Source of the DNA: Octopus sinensis
Taxonomy: Eukaryota
Length of the DNA: 64,000 bases
Direction: 5' to 3'
NCBI RefSeq assembly: GCF_006345805.1
Contig: NC_043024.1
Span: forward strand, 12,338,001 to 12,402,000
A program made the position numbers and the translations under genes. The notes under the pieces are model-generated. The model was not told the DNA's origin, searched no databases, and worked only from the letters and a program-made list of their open reading frames with translations. Positions 791 through 41,806 of the stretch are shown here, in pieces (within the stretch, counting starts at the first letter, position 1; each line of letters opens with the position of its first letter).

Positions 791-946
791 TCACAAACGG
801 TTCCGGTTTGAACCTCCACTCACTGCTTTCCTCTTCCAGAACCAAATTTGTCGATCAATGCCTGTGCAGGGCTTCATTAACAGCGTCTTCCCATCCATTG
901 ATATTTCCATGCACTTCAGTGTGTTCACATGTAAAATTGTTCGATC
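791..946 (-). CDS. pgant9: GALNT terminal coding exon (lectin gamma subdomain): DRTILHVNTLKCMEISMDGKTLLMKPCTGIDRQIWFWKRKAVSGGSNRNRL*
   Basis: aaattcacag acceptor, phase 0, C..C..QIW repeat, TGA at 793-791. Confidence 0.92.
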   Translation of the reverse strand, partial: DRTILHVNTLKCMEISMDGKTLLMKPCTGIDRQIWFWKRKAVSGGSNRNRL

Positions 947-2990: not shown

Positions 2991-3119
2991 CTCTCGATAC
3001 TGCCATTCTTGGTTCCCGTGTTGACTGTGGCATGGGTATATTATAACATTTTCACCTCCTGAGTAATCTAAACAGCCATCATCACGCCGAATTTCATCAT
3101 TTTTACTTAGCATCCAGTA
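2991..3119 (-). CDS. pgant9: GALNT lectin beta-subdomain exon: YWMLSKNDEIRRDDGCLDYSGGENVIIYPCHSQHGNQEWQYRE
   Basis: tttcgttcag acceptor, G|gtgagt donor, 129 nt; CLD...PCH...GNQEW. Too short for the ORF track, so read manually. Confidence 0.95.
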
Positions 3120-4898: not shown

Positions 4899-5003
4899 CT
4901 GGTTTCCTCCCTGATTATGGCACGGCCACATAATAACTGGTTTGTGCATGTTCTGGTGATCCACAGAGGCATCAACACACATGGCTTTCTGTTTGTTTCG
5001 GAT
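4899..5003 (-). CDS. pgant9: GALNT lectin alpha-subdomain exon: IRNKQKAMCVDASVDHQNMHKPVIMWPCHNQGGNQ
   Basis: ttcag acceptor, G|gtatgt donor, 105 nt; CxD...PCH..GGNQ ricin-B repeat. Confidence 0.94.
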
Positions 5004-7547: not shown

Positions 7548-7676
7548 CTCTCCCGACGCTAATGCTTCGCCAGGTATAAAAAGATCAGGATAGACATTCT
7601 TTATATACCAGTCGAATGAATGACATTTTAAACGTTCACGTAATTTTTTCCTGTCTGTGACATCACCAAAATCTCC
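7548..7676 (-). CDS. pgant9: GALNT constitutive exon: [43 protein letters not shown] (end of catalytic domain and linker)
   Basis: ttttag acceptor, G|gtaagt donor, 129 nt, phase 0-0. Confidence 0.95.
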
Positions 7677-9513: not shown

Positions 9514-9699
9514 CAAATCATAATTAAAACGTTCATAATAATAATTTTTATATTCATCCATCCATACTTCTGCTAATCGTACTGAATTCTTTTTTACAAC
9601 ATTTACACCTGTACGCCACTTGTATGGGCTTCTTTTTCGGAATATATGTCCTACATGTGAACAGGGGATTATTTCTAATGTACCACCACACATCCATAT
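9514..9699 (-). CDS. pgant9: GALNT constitutive exon: [62 protein letters not shown]
   Basis: ttcttccacag acceptor, G|gtgagt donor, 186 nt, phase 0-0; CSHVGH and the flexible-loop region. Confidence 0.96.
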
Positions 9700-12118: not shown

Positions 12119-12236
12119 CCTAAATGAAAGTTCTAGGTTCTCACCACCCCAAATATCCATTCCAGCATCATACGTTCCAAGCTCTGTGAAATAGGCACGA
12201 CTAATAGCAAATAGGCCACCTGCCATGGTAGGAGAT
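12119..12236 (-). CDS. pgant9: GALNT constitutive exon: [39 protein letters not shown] (Gal/GalNAc-T motif)
   Basis: acag acceptor, G|gtaagt donor, 118 nt, phase 2-0; its first base completes AG+A (Arg) or AA+A (Lys) from any B variant. Confidence 0.96.
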
Positions 12237-19529: not shown

Positions 19530-22420
19530 TGCTGCTTCCTACAGCCAAAACCATGCCACAGGCAGGATAAAAGGCTTCCTTTGAAAAGGACCACAGAATG
19601 AAAATTCCCAAAGGGGGGAAAAAGTCGTGTATCATCTGCAATGAAATGAAAATATGCTGGTGTAGTGTACACTACCTCCAACAGCCAGCCCTGTCCAGAT
19701 GCCATCATAAGTTGAGCAACAACTATTTTTATGTATGGCACAAAAGATTGAACAGCAACTGATCTGGCTGTATCAATTTCAGGGTTGAAGCCATCTCCAT
19801 CAACATACAAGGCCACCACAGCCAATGGAACCAGTCTGGCCACCACTGGCATTAACACAGGTGTCACATCAATATTCTTTATGAACATCAGAGGATCGTT
19901 ACAACTCAGTAACATTCTTTTCCTGAGAAAGTTTGTGGTACGGAATCAAGTCTTATGCATAGCACTCACCCAAACACACCTAAAACCTGACAGTTCAGAT
20001 ACAGAAATACATGTACCAAAGTATGTTGTACTGCAAAGCAACAGAAAAGACAGGAATCATGGTTGAACTACAATCTACCTGTGTGAAAATCTTACAGCCC
20101 AGACCCTTTTGCCAAACTCAAACTCAGTGGGTTACACACTAATTGTACGTATAAAACACCTTAATGTCGTTATATGTACTACTTATTGCCCATCAAATGC
20201 TCCAAATCACATGGGCCTATTCAAAGACTGTCTTGCAAGAATAGAAGTCTTAACCAAACTAGAACAACATATCAGTGTATTTCTCATCGGAGACTTCAAC
20301 CTACACAATGTAGCATGGTCTCAGGAATGATGTGACATGAAGAAAGTCAGGTGGAAGCCCTGCTCAACCTCACCAGCAAGTTATGCATGGAGCAAGTAAG
20401 ACTCCAATCAACCAGGTCAAATAATATACTTGATCTCTGTTTCACAAACAATATGGATTTTATCCTTAATGAGAATCTAATACTGACTCTGCTCTTGGAT
20501 CACAATATAATGGAGCTGATACCGTATGGACCAAAGAAACCTGCAGACATGCAGCCTATGAGAAGCACCCAAAATCTATCCATTCTGAACTTCCATAAAG
20601 CAGACTGGAGATCAATTGAGAAAGAGATCATCAAACAGGATTGGCCCCAATGTCTCTCTACACATGACACTGACATGAAATTCAAAGAATTCATGTCTGT
20701 AATGCAATCCATATGCTATAAAATTGTCCCAGAGAGAAAGGCCACTGCACATAAGAACAAGATTCCCAGGGAGAGAAAAGTTCTTATGAGACAGTGTACA
20801 AAGATTGCAAGCCACTTGGATGTAATATTAGCAATCGATGCTAACTGAGCTACTGGCCATGCTGGAATCCCACCAATCCTTTCCAAGTCATGCAAACAAG
20901 CCCTTGCAAAACCACTGTGGCTTCTTTTTCAGAGCTTCCATGTAAATGGTAAACTCCCAGACAAACTGAGGGAATGAATGCTAAGCCCTCTTCATAAAGG
21001 AGGAACCAGAGCAGATGCTTAAAACTGTCTCTCTGACCTCACACGTCAGCAAAGTCATGGAATGAATTGTCCAAAGAACATTAATTGCATTCCTTGAAGA
21101 GAATGACTTGCTCACTGACACCCAACGTGGTCTTCAGCCAGGCAGAATCCAATTGAAACAGCTGTAGCAGCATTACAACTGGGTGTCAAAGCAGATGCTC
21201 AATAACTCAAATGTGAATGTGATATATCTTGACTTTGATAAAGTCGACCATGTTATGATATGTCACAAGCTGTGTAATCATGGCATTGTCAGAAAACTTG
21301 GAGAATGGCTACACGACTTTCTAAAAGATAGAAGTGAGGTAGTGATGGCCAATGAGGCCACCTTCAAGGAAGCTCAAATAATGAGCAGAGTTCCACAGGG
21401 CACTGTCTTGGGACCACTGCTACACTAGTGGCCCTCTCACACATCCTCTCAGCTGTTTAGATAGCCACCCTTGCTAGCTATGCAGATGATACAAAAGTCT
21501 CTTGGAGGATACACAACCCTGGAGATGTTGCACATCTAGAACAGGAGTTGGAGGTAATATATAAGTGGGCTAAGGAAAATAACATGCAGTTTAATTCTGG
21601 AGAACTCCAAACCCTGTACTACCAACACACAAACTGAATGAAAATCAGACATGATACAATGGCTCAGGAGGCGTTGTAATTACTGAATGAAAATTAGTGC
21701 ATGACCTGGGCATTGCCATGAGTAATGAAGCATCTTTCCAGGTGCATATTACTAAGTTGGCAATAAAATGTAGACAGTTGGCCAGATGGATCCTTAGAAC
21801 TTTCAGAATGGGAGGACAAAAAACCATGATGGTCCTCTGAAAGGCATTTGTCTGCAGCCATTTAGATTCCTGCTTCTAACTATGGTAATGGCACAGTGTA
21901 AAATGAATGATGGATCTGAAAGCAATCCAGCAAAGCTACACAAAAAAGATTGTCTCAATGCGACTTCGGCTAATGGCAGAAACTGAAAAAGTTAATCTAT
22001 TCCTTAAAATAAAGGCAGGAAAGATATAGTGATATAGATCTGGAAAATGCTAGAACATCTTTGGCATTGTAAGTTACACAAATAGCAGAATGGAGTGGTA
22101 ACACCACTGCATAGTACCAAAGTCACCAGCATACAGGACCAGATACTGCAGCAGCTTGGATTTCAAGGGTCCACAACTCTTCAACATCTTTCCACGAAGT
22201 CTGAGAGAACTACATGAGGTGGATGAAGGTGTCTTCAAAACAAAACTGGATCTCCTCCAATTAAAAGTTTCAGATTAACCTATCCTCTGTTAAGAAATGC
22301 AGACGAAGGCAGCAACATTAAACCCCCTCATTCACTGTATGTCATACATCAGTGAAGGTTAATTGAAAGGGTAGCAAAGCTAATTGTTGGTACCCCAGCA
22401 TAGTTGCAGCTCTTGAGCTA
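19530..22420 (+). mobile_element. Degenerate CR1/L2-group LINE ORF2 (APE endonuclease and RT)
   Basis: FMNIRGS, IGDFNL, TRSNNILDLCFTN, IYLDFDKVDH, VPQGTVLGPLL, YADD, DLGI; many stops and frameshifts. Confidence 0.85.
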
Positions 22421-22845: not shown

Positions 22846-22989
22846 ATATACCAGAATACGTGTGTATTGATATATCAGAATATGTGTGTATTGATATACC
22901 AGAATACGTGTGTATTGATATACCAGAATACGTGTGTATTGATATACCAGAATACGTGTGTATTGATATACCAGAATACGTGTGTATTG
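22846..22989. repeat. 24-bp minisatellite (atataccagaatacgtgtgtattg) x6
   Basis: Six tandem units; five are identical and the second has two substitutions. Confidence 0.95.
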
Positions 22990-23212
22990 ATATATATATT
23001 TATATGCACATGTGTGTGAGTATGTGTGAGTATGTGTGTACATGTACATATGTGTATGTATATGCATATACATATATCCATATTTGCACATTTATATGTT
23101 TGCGTGTATATCTGTATACTTTTATTAATACACACACACACATGTATTTACATATATACATATATATCTTATATAAATTAGTTAATGTGGCTGAAATTGA
23201 TGTTTAACCAAC

Positions 23213-23423
23213 CTAATTGGTGCTGTTAAGTCAGACATGTTTCTATAGAATTTCGATGGAAGCATCCAGTTGAATATCAAATTCCAGTCAAAACGGCCTA
23301 TTTGTATGCTACTTCCTACTGAAGTGACAAAGTGTAGTGTACTGTCATCAATCTGGTCAATCACTGGGGTCACAGCATAGCGCTTGTCAGTAGCTATTCG
23401 ATCAAGAATAGGCTCCAGCCAGC
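23213..23423 (-). CDS. pgant9: GALNT catalytic exon, alternative variant B3: GWLEPILDRIATDKRYAVTPVIDQIDDSTLHFVTSVGSSIQIGRFDWNLIFNWMLPSKFYRNMSDLTAPIR
   Basis: ttttatatccag acceptor, AG|gttggt donor, 211 nt, phase 1-2, no stops; homologous to B1 and B2. Confidence 0.88.
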
Positions 23424-24449
23424 CTGGATATAAAATTAGACAATTATTTTAACTGGTTAAATGTCTACATCTCTGTAAATTAGTTTGTTTATCATTAATA
23501 AGAGTATAATTTTTGCCAATAATAAATTAACCTCATTATCTTAAGAGATAGTATTTAGTTACAGCATTTCATCTTCCAGGTACTCAAGTCAAAATTTGCC
23601 TTTGATTGTAGAAGCTAATAGAATAAAATTGATTTAGTCAGTTAAGCTCTCTTCAAATATATGCTTTCATCAGACATCAATATTTTCATTTACAATTCCA
23701 CACAGCTTTGATTTCTGTTCTTGGATGAGTACAAAGTACAAGACTGAACTTTCAATCATTTTCTGATTTCTGATCTGACATTTCTCAGAGTGAATCCTAT
23801 GAATAAATTCAAGTATACTATGAAATAAGAAGTCTGATTAAAAATTTGTTTTAGCAAAAAAAAAAAAAAATCCCCCCCAAAATTATATTTACCATTTTCA
23901 GAATATTAAGTTATCATATATTATATATTATTTAAATAAAAGCTCTCAAACAATTTTCATTTAATATAAAATGGCAGAGTTGTCTTTAAATTATGGTTTT
24001 GCATTCCACGATTTTTGACAAAATCATTTAACAGATTCTGTGACAAAATAAGTTTAGGAATGTATTTCATCACAACACCATTGACACAGGAATTTGAAGT
24101 GATATTCCCTTCAGTTTAGAAATAAAGGTTTCCTGGTTCTAATTCAGTCTGATACAGTGTAGTTTGACTATTTCTAGGAATAAGACAATGACTAAAGATG
24201 AAACTGATTGATACAAATGTTTTATGTTCATCTCTAAGAGTGAACGAGGTTAATGGTTTGGAAAATTATAATCTTATTTTAAACAATTTAATTATGCATC
24301 CAGTTTAATTGTTATTTGCTTGGTATAAATAAAAAAAATGTTTTTAAAACAATATAAAGAAAGAATGTAATAATAGCTAAACAAAAATAATAAAGAATTG
24401 AATAATAATAATAATAATAAAAATGAAAACAATATCAACAACAGTAACA

Positions 24450-24910
24450 ACAATACTGATTTTGTTTGTCTCTCCTACATGTTACTATATGCGGCCTTCG
24501 GTGCACTAACACCTTGTCTGTCTGGAAGTCAAGGCCCCAGAAGATCTTTGCCCTCTCGCTTTCGCCCATTACCTTTTCCAGTGTATGTTGGTACCAAGCA
24601 CCCAATTACCTCATAGCCATACTTCCAGTTCAGTCGTCAGTGAATGCTTTGTCGTTTCTGTGCTCTTTCTGCACAAGACTTTCACAAGCATTTAACAATG
24701 CAACCCACACATGCTGCACGGTTCATTGCACTTGTATGGTATATACATCCGTTTTCTCTGAGTTGGTATCCAATGCCAGGTCCTGGGCAGTGACGATTAG
24801 GCTTCTTTCAGTCTTCTTTCAAGGTTACTCTTTGCTGAGCCACCTCCACGATGCCTCCCCACGGTACACACAATATCTTCAATCTACAACATCACAATAT
24901 TGGATACTGT
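24450..24910 (-). mobile_element. R4/Dong-like LINE fragment
   Basis: Minus-strand SLIVTAQDLALDTN resembles the IAAQDQAL.T motif; flanked by (AAT)n/(AAC)n. Confidence 0.55.
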
Positions 24911-24949
24911 GCAACACTTTCAATAATAATAATAATAATAATAATGATG

Positions 24950-27900
24950 TTTTCTACTAGAGGCACAAGGCCTAAAATTTTTGGGAAAGTGTTATTTAAT
25001 TACATCAACCCCAATATTTGATTAGTACTAATTTTATCAACCTCCTGAAATATTGCAGAAGTGGGCAGGTCAATTACAACAACCCCAGTGTGCAACTGGT
25101 ACTTAATTTATCGACTCTGAAAGGATGAAAGGCAAAGTTGACCTCGGTAGAATTTGAACTCACAACCTAAAGACACATAAAATGCCTCTAAACATTCTGT
25201 CCAGCATGCTAATGATCCTTATTTCTTTACTGCAATATTAATAACAAAATAGTTGTTGTTTTTTTAAAAATTATTTAGCGATAAGGATGAAAGGGGTACT
25301 ACAAAGAGAAATTAGGTAAAAAAAGAGGTGGGATTTTATGCAGAATCAATTTACAACAAATGCTTTTATATAATCAAATGCTTGATAATGCAACTTCTAC
25401 CAAACTACGCTGACATCAGCAATCCAGTGCATACAATACATTCTCTCTACAATCATCGCTCAATTCTATAACAGAACTCAAACCACAGAGCTGTGAGCTC
25501 TGTCATCAAATGCTACATTACAGATTCTATATGAAATAGTCAGCCCACGCTCAACATTTAGCCTTATAAAACATTGCTCAATCCATACAACTCACTCCCT
25601 ACACATTCACAACAACAAACGCGAAAGCAGCCAACAAAATGTGACATGGGGCTCGTAATCTGCACAGAAAATGCAAAGAACATTAAAATAACAACGAGAA
25701 ATAACAAATGTCACAAACAAAAGCAGAACATTATCAACACAGCTGTGAATTTCCATCAAAAGAGTGTCAAGACACAGCTCAGAAATCAGAGGTGCACTGG
25801 ATGGCGGTGTTGTAGACACACGGAGAAAATTGTTGAAATAATAATAACAATAATAATGGTTTCGAATTTTGCCACAAGAGCAGCAGTTTTGGGATGAGTA
25901 TATTACATGAACCCCAGTGTTCAACTGGTACTTATTTTATCTTTTCTACTCTAGGCACAAGGCTCGAAATTTTTGGGGAGGGAGCCAGGCGATTAGATCG
26001 ACCCCAGTATGCAATTCGTACTTATTTTATCAACCCCCAAAGGACGAAAGGCAAAGTTGACCATATAAAAATTTGGAATACCACTACGGTAGATATATAT
26101 CTCAAACTGACGTACCAAACAAATACTAGGGGTCTAAACATCTTTCTCTCAATATCAGGAGTTTCTCTTTTAGAAATTAGGAAACAGGAAGAAACTCGAT
26201 TGGACAATAAAAGACTTGAGAATATTTCCTCAAGAACTCTTTTAATATAAAAAGTCAAGGCAACAACAAAACCCTTCAGCAGAAGATTAAAGCAAAAGGC
26301 AAAAGATGACCCCCAACGAAAGTAGAAAAGCTGGAAAGAAAAGGTTATGCACGGAAAATATCAAAGGGTCAACAACGGATCTAAATCAATGGGTCAAAGG
26401 TCAGACACGCACAACCCTTTCACCTAACGAATTCATTTTATACATATATCAGGAAAACGAAAAAAAAAAAAAAGGTTGCAAGACGCAACGAAAATTTAGG
26501 AGAATAAAAATAAGAAAAACGTGGAAACTTTACCGGTCGATGTGTTTCCATCACAAGGAACGAAAAGAAAATGATTTTCCTCAGACAGAATAGAAAAGAA
26601 AAAACAACAAAAACGAATCGCCTCCCTTGTTTGCAATGAGAGTTACCTCTCTTGTTTGCCAAGGGAAGTTACTCTTGATGTAACGATGTCTTGCAACAGA
26701 ATTTACAAATCTTTTCCAATAATTAAACCAATTCAGCAGATTTATTACAACAACAACAACAACTCTCCGAGGCAGTTTGATCGGCTAGAAACTACAGCCA
26801 AATCTCCTGAACAACACACATGTAATGAAGGAAGAACACAATAGATAGTTGTCCTGTCATCGCAGGAACATCTTATATTACAGATTTGCTCGTTGCTTGA
26901 ACTGAGCTGACTTAAACAACAGCAACAACAACAACACAATCCGTTAGAAATCGATGGAATCTAAATATATAAGGATTCACTGTGTATCTGTATGTGTGTG
27001 GGTGTGCGCTAGTAGAAACAGGTGTAAAAGTATTTGTGTAGATATGTATGTTGTGTGTGTGTGTTGGTAAGTAAAGTGAAGCATTGTAAGTTCAAATGCA
27101 GCAATTAGAAATTTGCAATGGAGCAGATTTCAAAAGAAAGTTTGAAATGTGTGTTAAAAAAAAAAATGGTGCAGATTTAACGTAAGAGATATTAAGAAAA
27201 AATAATAAATGAGAAAAAAAATAGACACTAAGAAGTAAAAGTAATAATAAATTTTTCAAATTTTGGCAAAAGCTACCAAAAGGGTGAGCCAGGTTAGTTG
27301 ATTACATCAACCCAGGAAACGGAAAGGTAATTATGAACAGAGTCAAAGGAAATACCACAATCCATTTTGTTTGAGGCACCAACGATTCCGTTAGCTCACC
27401 ACTATAATAAACTTTCAGACACAAAGCCTGAAATTTGGGTGAGGGGGATAATCGATTACATCGACCCCAGTATGCAACTGGTACTTAATTGACACCAAAA
27501 GGATGAACAGGATGGAATTTGAACTAAGAACAGTGATAGACGAAATACCACAAAGCATTTCGTCCATTATGCTAATGGTTCTGCTGGCTCACAGCCTTGC
27601 TCACCTTTATATTAACAATAATTCTTTCTACTGTAGGCACAAAGCATGAATTGTTTGGGAAAGGGTGTAGTCCACTACATCAGCCCCAGTGCTAAATTAG
27701 TGCTTATTTCATCGATCCTGAAAGGATCAAAGGTAAAATTAGCCTCAGCGGAATTTGAATTCGGAGCAAAAAGATGGGACAAAATGCTGCTAAACTTTCT
27801 GTAACGATTCTCTCAGCTTGCTTCTGTAATAACAATAATGAAAATAATAATGGGTTCTATATTGGCAGAAGACCTCATGTTTCCAGGGAGGGCTCTAATC

Positions 27901-28030
27901 AATTATATCTAACTTTAGTACAATTATGGTACATTAATTAATTAATCTGGAAGAAATGAAAGGTAAAGTCAACTTTCAAAGAATTTGAAATCAGAACCCA
28001 GAACAAAAACAACAAGCAATTTGTTCAATG
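24950..28030 (-). repeat. Cluster of Meta-like SINE copies between exons B2 and B3 (~24950, 25060, 25860, 25950, 27420, 27630, 27860)
   Basis: Recurrent ccccagt..caactggtactt..tttatcgacc..gaaaggatgaaaggcaaagt.gacc..ggaatttgaactca, all in the same orientation. Confidence 0.75.
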
Positions 28031-28059
28031 CTTTGATGATTTTGTCTACCTTTCCTTTC

Positions 28060-28122
<63 letters not shown>

Positions 28123-28200
28123 GAAGAGGAAGAAGATGGAGAATTATTAATAGTATTAATAATAATGATGAAAAATTGATAATGATTTTAATGAACTAAC

Positions 28201-28408
28201 TTGACTGGTGCACAAAAATCTGAGAAATTCTTATAGAAGCTAGTGGATGCCATCCACCTGTAAGTTAGGGACCAGTCAAAACGGCCAATAGATACAGATT
28301 TGCCTGCACGTGTGAAATGTAAATCAGTATCACTGATGAGACCAATCATAGGTGCCACAACATGTGTATGGTTCATCTCGATACGTGAGAGTAATGGTTC
28401 CAGCCAAC
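28201..28408 (-). CDS. pgant9: GALNT catalytic exon, alternative variant B2: GWLEPLLSRIEMNHTHVVAPMIGLISDTDLHFTRAGKSVSIGRFDWSLTYRWMASTSFYKNFSDFCAPVK
   Basis: caactacag acceptor, AA|gttagt donor, 208 nt, phase 1-2, no stops; homologous to B1 over its full length. Confidence 0.85.
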
Positions 28409-29952: not shown

Positions 29953-31950
29953 TTAGTTAGTTAGTTAGTTAATTTGGCTCAAAAGCAAATAGCAAGGCCA
30001 TGTAGGGGGACATGGAGTTAAGTACAGGGTGGTGTTCATGTAAAGAGTTCAGGCCACTTGAGGTCAAGGGAGGCTTTGAACAAAGCGGTCGTCGGCATCT
30101 TCACCATCTCGTCTGGCAGCTTGTTCCATGGATCCGCAACCCGGACGGAGAAAGCTCCTCTCCTTCGATTGAGATGAAATCGTCGCAGGTAGAGCTTTTC
30201 GGAATGACCCCGCAGCCGACGCTCTGGAGCAGGAGTCAAGAACAGCTCTTTCGAGAGGTTACACTTTCCGCTTATGATGCTGTGGGCGAGAATGAGATCA
30301 CCACGGCGGCGGCGTTTTTCAAGAGAATAAAGGTCGAGCGTCCTCAGCCTTTCTTTGTAGGACAAATTTTTGAGACCATGAACCATGCGGGTAGCCAGCT
30401 TCTGGACTCTTTCGAGATGCTGTATGTCTTTGAGGAGATAAGGAGAAGAGGCTTGAATCCCATACTCCAATATGGGTCTCACCAGCGTGACATAGAGTGG
30501 TAGGAATATGGCTGCTGTGAGCATTCCGAATGACCGTCGAATCAAGAACAGAATTCCGCGTGCTTTGTTGGCAGCATGGACGCACTGGGCCGAAGGCGAA
30601 AAGGAGGAATCCACCAAGATACCTAGGTCCTTTACCTGATCGGTCCTCTCCAGCAGCAGACGACTCGGCTCGAAATCAAGTTGAGTTGCAGGAGTAGAGC
30701 CGACAGGCAGATGACAGCACTTTGACACGTTCAGACACAGGTCCCAATTGTTAGACCACTTCCAAATTTGGTGGAGGCATCGACGAAGATCCTCTATATT
30801 ACCGCGAGGAGCGACCAGTTTGATATCGTCGGCAAATAGAAGGGTGTGTTGCGTGAGGTCGTCGGGCAAGTCATTTATGAAGACTAAGAACAACAAGGGC
30901 CCAAGCACTGAACCTTGAGGCACGCCACTGCTCGCACTGGAGACGTCGGACCGTGAACCATTAACTTGGACTTGGAAGGAGCGATCTGAGAGGAAGGCAC
31001 CAACCCATCGTACAATATCCGGATGGAAACTATATGCTTGAAGCTTGACAAGCAATAGGCGGTGGTTTACCGAGTCAAAAGCTTTGGCAAAGTCCAGTAA
31101 AACGATGTCAACAGCATCACTATCATCGAGGATGCGCGTCACCAATTCTTCCATTACTAGTAGGTTGGTCAAGCATGATCTCTTCGGCACGAAGCCGTGT
31201 TGGGAATCAGAGATAGAGGCTGTGTTTAGGAGGTGGAGCATCATACTTTTCTTAAGGATGGTTTCGAACATCTTGCTGATAATTGATGTAAGGGAAACCG
31301 GTTGGTAGTTAAGCGGGTCTTTGCGGCTCCCTTTCTTGAAAATTGGGCAGATTATCGCTGTTCTCCAGTCTGCAGGTATAACACCCGTCGCCAATGACAT
31401 ATTGAATAGTCGTGTTAAGGGCTCGCAGATGACCGGAGCCAACGCTTTGATAACCCGTGGGTGTATGCCGTCAGGGCCATGACCTTTGTTGACATCGAGG
31501 CCTTGAATAACACGTTTGACTTCGTCCCGCGTGATGACCAATCGAAGCATTGGAGGTACCGATCTATCAAATGGAGGGGGTTCACGACCATCATCTTGTT
31601 TGAAAATAGTTGAAAAAGCCTCGGCAAATAATTGACTCTGTTGATAAGGGTCCTCAATCGATACGCCTGTTGAGTCTACCAACGTTGCAATCTGGTTGTT
31701 CAAGCGGGAATTCTGCTGGACATGGGCAAAGAAGGTTTTTGGATTGCTACTGGCATTTGCCGTGATTTTGTATTCGTAACTGAAGCGTTCTTTCTTTTCA
31801 GTTTTCATGGCTCGGTCTCGTTGAGTTTTGTACACCTCAAAAGCTGCAGTCGAATCCAGATTTTTGAATTCAGCCCAAGCAATATCTCTGAGTCGACGTT
31901 CTCGTTTAACCCTCTTCGTCACAGGCTGTCCATAAATTACAGACGTCACT
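29953..31950 (-). mobile_element. Young 5'-truncated CR1/L2-group LINE with an uninterrupted 637-codon RT frame and (TAAC)n tail
   Basis: ORF 30036-31949 has no stops; NYQPVSLTS, QHGFVPKRSC, LDFAKAFDSV, GVPQGSVLGPLLF, FADD, KDLGILVD. No endonuclease domain and no ATG start. Short 3' UTR and TAAC repeats at 29953-29970. Confidence 0.93.
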
Positions 31951-32134
31951 AAATATATCCTCAGTGATTGTTATATTTGTTTTGATAACATAATATGTTA
32001 GATAGGATGATGTCTTATATTACAATAACCAATAATATGTTGTGCATGTGTAGTAATATTATAATCACGAAATTAGCAATAGCTTTTCGCACTCTTTCTC
32101 GCGAAACCCCTAGGAACCTTAATAAATAATAATA

Positions 32135-41592: not shown

Positions 41593-41806
41593 CTGATTGG
41601 TGCGACATCACTGTTCCGTCTCTGTCGTTCCACATCTGGTATTCCATGCCATGTGAATTGTAAACTCCAATCAAATCCTCCTATACTTGTGCTCTTAGCG
41701 CTACCGTATTGGTAGCGGAATGACTCATCCTCGACCACATCTATCACAGGAGTCACAACATTTGACTTGTTTTCTCCTATTCTGTCTAGCAAAGGCTCCA
41801 GCCAGC
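41593..41806 (-). CDS. pgant9: GALNT catalytic exon, variant B1 (canonical): GWLEPLLDRIGENKSNVVTPVIDVVEDESFRYQYGSAKSTSIGGFDWSLQFTWHGIPDVERQRRNSDVAPIR
   Basis: aattctag acceptor, AG|gtatat donor, 214 nt, phase 1-2, no stops; canonical GGFDW. Confidence 0.95.

What the first reader, a model, noticed from the sequence alone, without database searches (positions are those of the whole stretch)
23213..28408. Variants B2 and B3 rewrite the acceptor-peptide groove (GGFDW to GRFDW, IDV to IGL/IDQ, FxW to YRW)
By alignment from memory to human GalNAc-T2 (PIIDVI...ASADLKGGFDWNLVFKW), this exon carries the equivalents of the peptide-contacting residues V255, A266, L270, F280 and W282. B1 is canonical (IDVV, GGFDW, FTW). 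B2 has IGLI, GRFDW and YRW; B3 has IDQI, GRFDW and FNW. Both replace a normally conserved Gly with Arg and replace the charged segment DVERQRRNSD with TSFYKNFSD or SKFYRNMSD. The DxH, WGGEN and CSHVGH motifs lie in shared exons, so donor chemistry stays constant while acceptor recognition could change, for example toward acidic or pre-glycosylated peptides, or be lost.
Basis: partly seen in the sequence, partly recalled or inferred. Interest (0 to 1): 0.75.

Follow-up and report, generated by a model that had tools for sequence, protein, structure and literature searches.

The report
Swappable groove exons in mollusc glycosyltransferase
An octopus gene for an enzyme that starts mucin-type sugar chains carries three intact versions of the exon that lines its protein-binding groove, mussels, oysters, abalone and a chiton have annotated versions of the same swap, and one gene would thereby make several enzymes that likely prefer different target proteins.

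Summary
Observation confirmed. B1, B2 and B3 are intact, same-phase copies of one catalytic-domain exon of an octopus PGANT9-type GalNAc-transferase. Only single inclusion keeps the frame, and RefSeq already annotates all three isoforms. The same block swaps in annotated isoforms of mussels, oysters, abalone and a chiton. All 14 segments with Arg/Lys/His at the Gly site are molluscan and carry Met ten residues later; 106 of 111 Gly segments carry His (75). Arthropods have a shorter parallel cassette. The exon encodes groove residues, but Trp282, Phe/Tyr280 and Ile253 are kept. Strand alternation puts the new Arg on the face away from the listed peptide contacts (100, 33; inferred). The likelier specificity changes are at Val255, Leu270, Lys281 and the following helix. 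Activity and octopus expression are untested; no read evidence was obtained. Splice-tuned GalNAc-transferases are known (fly pgant5, pgant9), but at other exons. The scan noted this cassette before in another octopus genome. New variant of a known kind; interest 0.55.

The parts
60859..61023 (-). Shared exon A: GT-A core with the DSH (DxH) motif
   Evidence: matches P0003 residues 302-357
41593..41806 (-). Alternative exon B1, canonical copy (GGFDW..WH), 214 nt; used in RefSeq isoforms X1 and X4
   Evidence: E 6e-23 to PGANT9
28201..28408 (-). Alternative exon B2 (IGL, GRFDW, YRWM), 208 nt; RefSeq isoform X3
   Evidence: modelled
23213..23423 (-). Alternative exon B3 (IDQ, GRFDW, FNWM), 211 nt; RefSeq isoform X2
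12119..12236 (-). Shared exon C: SPTMAGG..WGGEN (Gal/GalNAc-T motif)
9514..9699 (-). Shared exon D: CSHVGH and flexible loop; single copy here (the region that is alternative in fly pgant5)
7548..7676 (-). Shared exon E: end of catalytic domain and linker
4899..5003 (-). Shared exon F: lectin alpha subdomain; single copy here (the region that is alternative in fly pgant9)
2991..3119 (-). Shared exon G: lectin beta subdomain
791..946 (-). Last coding exon H: lectin gamma subdomain and stop. Three 5' coding exons lie beyond the window, each single copy in the 60 kb fetched

Best explanation
The window holds three intact, same-phase copies of the exon that encodes the acceptor-groove hairpin of a PGANT9-type GalNAc-transferase; they are likely spliced one per message, giving three enzymes that are predicted to stay active and likely differ in acceptor preference, and B2/B3 likely descend from an old molluscan duplicate. 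Shown: the exon anatomy; that only single inclusion keeps the frame; that the catalytic, metal-binding and lectin parts are shared; that the same block, and only that block, differs among annotated isoforms of mussels, oysters, abalone and a chiton; and that the basic-273/Met-283 signature is shared. Inferred: zero-, two- and three-copy messages are removed by nonsense-mediated decay. Also inferred: W282, F/Y280, G272, F274 and I253 preserve the Pro pocket and donor pocket, while polar replacements at V255 (and Gln at L270 in B3), changes at K281 and Y284 and a rewritten helix alter which flanking residues are accepted. Arg273 and Met283 would be a coupled pair on the outer hairpin face next to residue 281, acting on the groove rim rather than inside the pocket. 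B1 would be the default form and B2/B3 minor or tissue-restricted forms.
For: Frame test: A+Bx+C+D is open for each of 3 copies, and all 5 other combinations stop in B2, B3 or C. RefSeq X1/X2/X3 differ only in this block. Isoform pairs differing only in this block: 8 of 8 Mytilus pairs tested, 4 of 4 C. virginica pairs, 1 chiton pair and 1 abalone pair. Of 134 unique segments, 14 have R/K/H at 273, all from named molluscs and all with M283; 106 of 111 Gly segments have H283; 7 have other residues and 2 were dropped. V/I/L at 255: 1 of 14 basic against at least 96 of 111 Gly. The basic exons group together at 93/90 and 86/97; an octopus-only duplication is rejected under LG+G4 (p-AU 0.0009). 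One mussel and one oyster derived exon form a starred pair in all three trees. An oyster derived isoform of 640 aa is encoded on a 2,068-nt Logan contig, which I read as a spliced mRNA. The B2 model has pLDDT 87-98 over residues 361-410 and matches PGANT9 (TMt 0.95, rmsd 1.4). G272, F274, W282 and P251 are invariant in all 135 aligned proteins. Precedent that small catalytic-domain splice changes shift GalNAc-T specificity: PMC12776162.
Against: No read-level evidence for octopus B2/B3: no listed run is on record as RNA, and no reads were laid. The RefSeq isoforms are models whose support I could not see. All 6 segment-bearing Logan proteins of the two cephalopod-like clusters carry the B1 type. 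No close B2/B3 counterpart from another cephalopod is among the best 150 of 1,025 profile hits. With the two signature columns masked and a mixture model, the octopus-only tree is no longer rejected (p-AU 0.08) and the derived group dissolves; B2 and B3 are long branches. Derived exons are far less conserved (mean 47% identity) than canonical ones (69-85%). Listed members of the Biomphalaria and Physella/Bulinus clusters show no derived type. The model's confidence comes from an alignment dominated by canonical copies, and residues 411-420 are at pLDDT 69. No enzyme data exist for any of these isoforms.
Confidence: 0.65

Rival explanations
1. B2 and B3 are expressed but catalytically weak or dead, and act as lectin-bearing decoys or as a splice route that lowers the level of the active B1 enzyme.
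For: D254 is Gly in B2 and V255 is Gln in B3; positions 254 and 255 are conserved in Gly-type segments and variable in basic-type ones. Derived exons evolve fast. B1 dominates the transcript-derived proteins.
Against: W282, whose mutation nearly abolishes GalNAc-T2 activity, is kept, as are F/Y280, I253, G272 and F274. Up to four different derived copies persist in an oyster, more than a simple off-switch needs.
Confidence: 0.15
2. All three are active with nearly the same acceptor preference; the swap changes stability, N-glycosylation, Golgi partners or kinetics instead.
For: The most conserved derived signature (R/K/H273 with M283) maps to the hairpin face away from the listed peptide contacts. 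B2 and B3 gain an N-x-S sequon in the following helix; such a sequon is present in 6 of 14 basic segments against 10 of 111 Gly segments.
Against: Listed contacts V255, L270, Y284 and the rim residue K281 all differ among the copies. A single loop residue is enough to shift PGANT5 specificity.
Confidence: 0.12
3. In octopus, B2 and B3 are decaying relics that are rarely spliced in, and the RefSeq isoforms are over-predictions.
For: No RNA evidence was obtained here. B2 is the longest branch. No other cephalopod B2/B3 protein was found.
Against: Both keep open frames, phase and splice ends after about 50% protein divergence (1.8% chance per exon in simulation). Codon positions 1 and 2 are 46-58% identical against 38-41% at position 3.
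Confidence: 0.08

Closest known systems
RefSeq Octopus sinensis 'GalNAc-T 5-like' isoforms X1, X2, X3 (XP_029652604.1, XP_029652605.1, XP_029652606.1)
   Same: The window's exons match these proteins; X1, X2 and X3 use B1, B3 and B2.
   Different: Automatic annotation only; no paper describing the cassette turned up.
Drosophila pgant9 (PGANT9A/B; PMC6115407; passages seen)
   Same: Closest solved structure by sequence and fold. One gene, alternative duplicated exons, isoforms with different peptide preference.
   Different: The fly swap is exon 8, the lectin alpha subdomain; that exon is single copy here. The octopus swap is in the catalytic groove, with three copies at about 41-49% identity.
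Drosophila pgant5 (PGANT5A/B; PMC12776162; abstract and sections 3, 7, 11 read)
   Same: Alternative catalytic-domain segment that changes acceptor specificity.
   Different: The fly swap covers residues 398-457 (flexible loop and helix-turn-helix), the region of single-copy exon D here; it is a different gene (GalNAc-T1 ortholog) with two close variants.
Human GalNAc-T2 peptide groove (PMC4432651, passages and section 7; bioRxiv 2020.06.25.171371, passages and discussion; PMC7276986, passages)
   Same: Gives the residue map: V255, L270, F280, W282, Y284 contacts; K281 rim; I253 donor gatekeeper. All fall in exon B.
   Different: These papers describe separate genes as the source of groove diversity; here one gene supplies it.
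C. elegans gly-5 and gly-6 splice variants (Hagen and Nehrke 1998; recalled, paper not held)
   Same: Recalled as GalNAc-T genes with several splice forms; RefSeq's '5-like' name probably follows gly-5 (inference).
   Different: I could not check which exons differ. If one of them swaps this same segment, the novelty drops.

Membership tests
Polypeptide GalNAc-transferase (GT27) | Type II membrane anchor, stem, GT-A catalytic domain, ricin-type lectin domain | tested here: met
   PF00535, PF02709 and PF00652 above cut-off in all three isoforms; N-terminal helix 4-37 in the model
Polypeptide GalNAc-transferase (GT27) | DxH plus distal His for Mn2+, and the WGGEN motif | tested here: met
   DSH 349, WGGEN 457, CSHVGH 480 in P0003, all in shared exons
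Polypeptide GalNAc-transferase (GT27) | Pro-pocket aromatics F280, W282, F361 | tested here: met
   W282 in all copies, F/Y/F at 280; the Phe of HIFRK is in shared exon D (its equivalence to F361 is inferred from the motif)
Polypeptide GalNAc-transferase (GT27) | [quoted passage not shown] | not testable with these tools
   Needs an assay for each isoform
PGANT9-type subfamily | Closest characterised relative is PGANT9 rather than T1/T2 | tested here: met
   682 bits to PGANT9 against 532 to T1; best fold match. No full-length tree was built, so orthology rests on best hits
Mutually exclusive exon cluster from tandem duplication | Homologous neighbouring exons with the same phase and similar length | tested here: met
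   214, 208 and 211 nt; same phases; E 1e-13 to 1e-21 to each other
Mutually exclusive exon cluster from tandem duplication | A means of exclusion | tested here: met
   Frame incompatibility: 5 of 5 non-single combinations stop early. Steric block does not fit (introns of 13,184 and 4,777 nt); all ends are GT-AG; no docking/selector pairing above controls
Mutually exclusive exon cluster from tandem duplication | Transcripts contain exactly one copy | tested here: inconclusive
   Annotated isoforms and one oyster Logan protein carry one copy each; no octopus reads were seen

The most novel reading that the evidence does not exclude
The PGANT9-type gene is a recurrent hotspot where animals build a library of acceptor grooves by exon duplication. 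Molluscs inherited a duplicate with a basic-273/Met-283 hairpin from before chitons, snails, bivalves and cephalopods split, and expanded it to two to five copies. Arthropods built a shorter array of the same exon separately. The basic-hairpin class would be a GalNAc-T acceptor specificity not yet described, for example for acidic or already glycosylated mucus, shell or skin proteins.
Probability: 0.3. Interest if true: 0.75.

Novelty: new variant of a known kind. Interest (0 to 1): 0.55.

Why it matters
How GalNAc-transferases choose their sites without a consensus sequence is a long-standing question. Comparisons between paralogs are confounded because the whole enzyme differs. Here up to five natural versions of the groove hairpin sit on an otherwise identical enzyme, so the contribution of this one segment can be measured directly. 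It would also mean that gene counts understate O-glycosylation diversity in molluscs. The one molluscan GalNAc-T paper whose passages I read speculated in 2019 that molluscs have few, general enzymes (PMC6994419).

Tried and rejected
Expression: no RNA holder was listed, and no reads could be laid, so octopus expression stays open. Docking/selector RNA pairing: best shared scores were 20 and 21, within the range of 15 random-intron controls each (16-21 and 17-42); rejected at this sensitivity. Further copies: none in the window. Other exons: single copy in the window and in 60 kb upstream. The first AlphaFold2 model (B3 isoform, 32 rows) had mean pLDDT 59 with the exon region under 50 and was not used. 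No coordinates were returned for either model, so no contact distances were measured. Four-fold sites at codons with the same amino acid were identical in 6/9, 7/11 and 6/11, too few to show saturation. B1 and B3 downstream flanks gave a local score of 66 against 18-28 for the other five comparisons; I did not inspect it. Fisher tests treat related sequences as independent and are not used as probabilities. I could not view the residue at 273 in the T3, T7 or T10 structures; that several human isoenzymes have a non-Gly residue there is recalled only. The GalNAc-T4 short-range glycopeptide site (T283/Q285, which would align with positions 279/281) is recalled only; searches did not retrieve it. 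Literature searches showed no paper on this cassette among the rows listed; subscription journals are mostly not held, and no supplements were read.
Full report
1. Observation. The minus strand holds a polypeptide GalNAc-transferase gene. Between exon A (61023-60859, DSH) and exon C (12236-12119, WGGEN) lie three homologous exons: B1 41806-41593, B2 28408-28201 and B3 23423-23213. Each has AG and GT ends, starts in phase 1, ends in phase 2 and is 1 mod 3 long. A profile of 131 homologous segments finds these three copies and no other in the window. Every other coding exon is single copy, in the window and in 60 kb fetched upstream. The copies are 41-49% identical as protein. Codon positions 1 and 2 are better kept than position 3, and random substitution to the same distance leaves a frame open in 1.8% of trials.

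2. What the gene is. B3 matches a RefSeq Octopus sinensis 'GalNAc-T 5-like' protein at 100%. Its cluster holds isoforms X1 and X4 (B1), X2 (B3) and X3 (B2), so the three forms are already annotated, as models. All three carry the GT-A and ricin-lectin Pfam domains above cut-off. The closest solved structure is Drosophila PGANT9, by sequence (682 bits against 532 for T1) and by fold.

3. Exclusion. A+B+C+D is open with any single copy. Zero, two or three copies give a stop in B2, B3 or C in 5 of 5 combinations. The introns between copies are 13,184 and 4,777 nt, too long for steric exclusion, and a search for docking/selector pairing gave nothing above controls. I infer removal of non-single messages by nonsense-mediated decay. 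No octopus read evidence was obtained: no listed run is on record as RNA and no reads were laid.

4. The cassette is molluscan, not octopus-only. A search with the B3 region returned 196 proteins, of which 120 were listed. Ten clusters were then opened, with 15 of 20 and 15 of 33 members shown for the two largest. Within a species, isoforms differ only in this block in 8 of 8 Mytilus pairs, 4 of 4 Crassostrea virginica pairs, the chiton pair and the abalone pair. That gives five types across Mytilus, five in the oyster, two in the chiton and two in the abalone. Each has one canonical copy (69-85% identical between these species) and divergent copies (mean 47%). Among 134 unique segments, 14 have Arg, Lys or His at the second Gly; all are molluscan and all have Met at 283. 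Of 111 Gly segments, 106 have His there; 7 have other residues and 2 were dropped. In the profile search, 16 of 16 basic-type hits among the 150 listed also have Met. One oyster derived isoform of 640 aa lies on a 2,068-nt Logan contig, which I read as a spliced transcript. Against generality: listed Biomphalaria and Physella/Bulinus members show only the canonical type. All 6 cephalopod-like Logan proteins with the segment carry B1, and no close B2/B3 counterpart appeared among the 150 best profile hits.

5. Age. The basic-type exons group together (93/90, including two unnamed long rows; 86/97). An octopus-only origin of B1-B3 is rejected under LG+G4 (p-AU 0.0009). It is not rejected when the two signature columns are masked under a mixture model (p-AU 0.08). 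A single pre-cephalopod origin therefore rests largely on the shared signature (positions 273 and 283, plus His or Tyr at 247 in 13 of 14), and I put it at about 0.7. Arthropods have tandem copies of a shorter exon that ends before F280 and keeps Gly. The different 3' boundary suggests a separate origin (inference).

6. What the swap changes. The exon aligns with GalNAc-T2 W233-I301. In B1/B2/B3 the equivalents are: I253 I/I/I, D254 D/G/D, V255 V/L/Q, L270 S/S/Q, G273 G/R/R, F280 F/Y/F, K281 T/R/N, W282 W/W/W, D283 H/M/M and Y284 G/A/L. PMC4432651 (passages and section 7) lists V255, L270, F280, W282 and Y284 as peptide contacts, with F280, W282 and F361 as the Pro-x-Pro pocket; its W282A mutant is nearly inactive. 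A modelling preprint (10.1101/2020.06.25.171371, passages and discussion) puts K281 at the groove rim as a +1 gate. I253 is a donor-pocket gatekeeper (PMC7276986, passages). G273 occurs in neither contact list. The AlphaFold2 model of the B2 isoform (135 rows; pLDDT 87-98 over 361-410, 69 over 411-420) has strands 396-400 and 406-410 forming a hairpin. By alternation, the even positions 270, 272, 274, 280, 282 and 284 share a face, which agrees with the contact list and would explain why G272 is invariant. Positions 271, 273, 281 and 283 share the other face. Arg273 would therefore sit beside residue 281 and diagonal to Met283, which fits their coupling. This is inferred from secondary structure alone. 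Arg at 281 is also what GalNAc-T1 has. Net charge from G272 to the exon end is 0, +2 and +2; group means are +2.4 for basic and +1.4 for Gly segments, a weak shift.

7. Mechanism. Most likely (0.65), one copy is spliced per message, the pocket core and donor site are kept, and changes at 255, 270, 281, 284 and the following helix give different acceptor preferences, with B1 as the default. Rivals: weak or dead isoforms (0.15); same specificity but different stability or glycosylation (0.12); relics in octopus (0.08).

8. Comparison with what is known. Splice-tuned GalNAc-transferases are established in Drosophila: pgant9 swaps the lectin alpha exon (PMC6115407, passages) and pgant5 swaps the flexible-loop region (PMC12776162, abstract and sections 3, 7, 11). 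Both regions are single copy here. Searches listed no paper on a swap of the groove hairpin. Most subscription journals are not held, and the C. elegans gly-5/gly-6 paper (recalled) could not be read. The scan earlier noted this three-exon cassette in another octopus genome, and a pair in echinoderms. These are unchecked notes, not support.

9. Verdict. The feature is real and annotated at the protein level; I found no description of it as a system. It is a new variant of a known kind. The stronger result is the shared molluscan exon library. Interest 0.55.

Noticed in passing
P0048, P0176, P0177 (Scylla); P0182 (Halocaridina), P0183 (Ladona), P0184 (Armadillidium): Arthropods have tandem copies of a shorter version of the same exon, starting at the same Trp but ending before F280 (4, 2 and 2 copies in mis-joined gene models). 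25 of 150 profile hits break there with a Val, as GT read-through would give. All keep Gly273. Scylla isoforms also differ in the lectin alpha block, so splicing there is combinatorial.
   Followed up: partly
window 28201-28250 and 23213-23260, minus strand: B2 and B3 both gain an N-x-S sequon in the helix after W282; B2 also gains a Cys near its end.
   Followed up: partly
L005:1501-1683, minus strand: Another octopus GalNAc-T exon has Ile at the 273 position and Met at 283, so a bulky 273 with Met283 also occurs in a separate gene.
   Followed up: no
P0137, P0139: One bivalve derived exon type changes the strand around the donor gatekeeper (PQIP in mussel, PQMP in oyster, with Met at I253). 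It is the best candidate for an altered donor pocket.
   Followed up: no
window 30039-31970, minus strand: A 644-codon open frame with a reverse transcriptase domain (PF00078, E 5e-31) lies in the B1-B2 intron, probably a LINE-type element. A decayed similar stretch appears to lie near 20300-22300 (read by eye).
   Followed up: partly
window 22846-22994: A 24-nt tandem repeat of 6.2 copies, 96% matched, lies about 220 nt past the B3 donor.
   Followed up: no
P0002 against P0003: RefSeq isoform X4 lacks 35 residues of the Asn-rich stem; this may be a cryptic intron or a modelling artefact.
   Followed up: no
P0279: An unnamed 934-aa protein carries a basic-273/Met-283 segment directly after its DSH region, with no lectin domain found by Pfam; probably a mis-joined gene model.
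   Followed up: no
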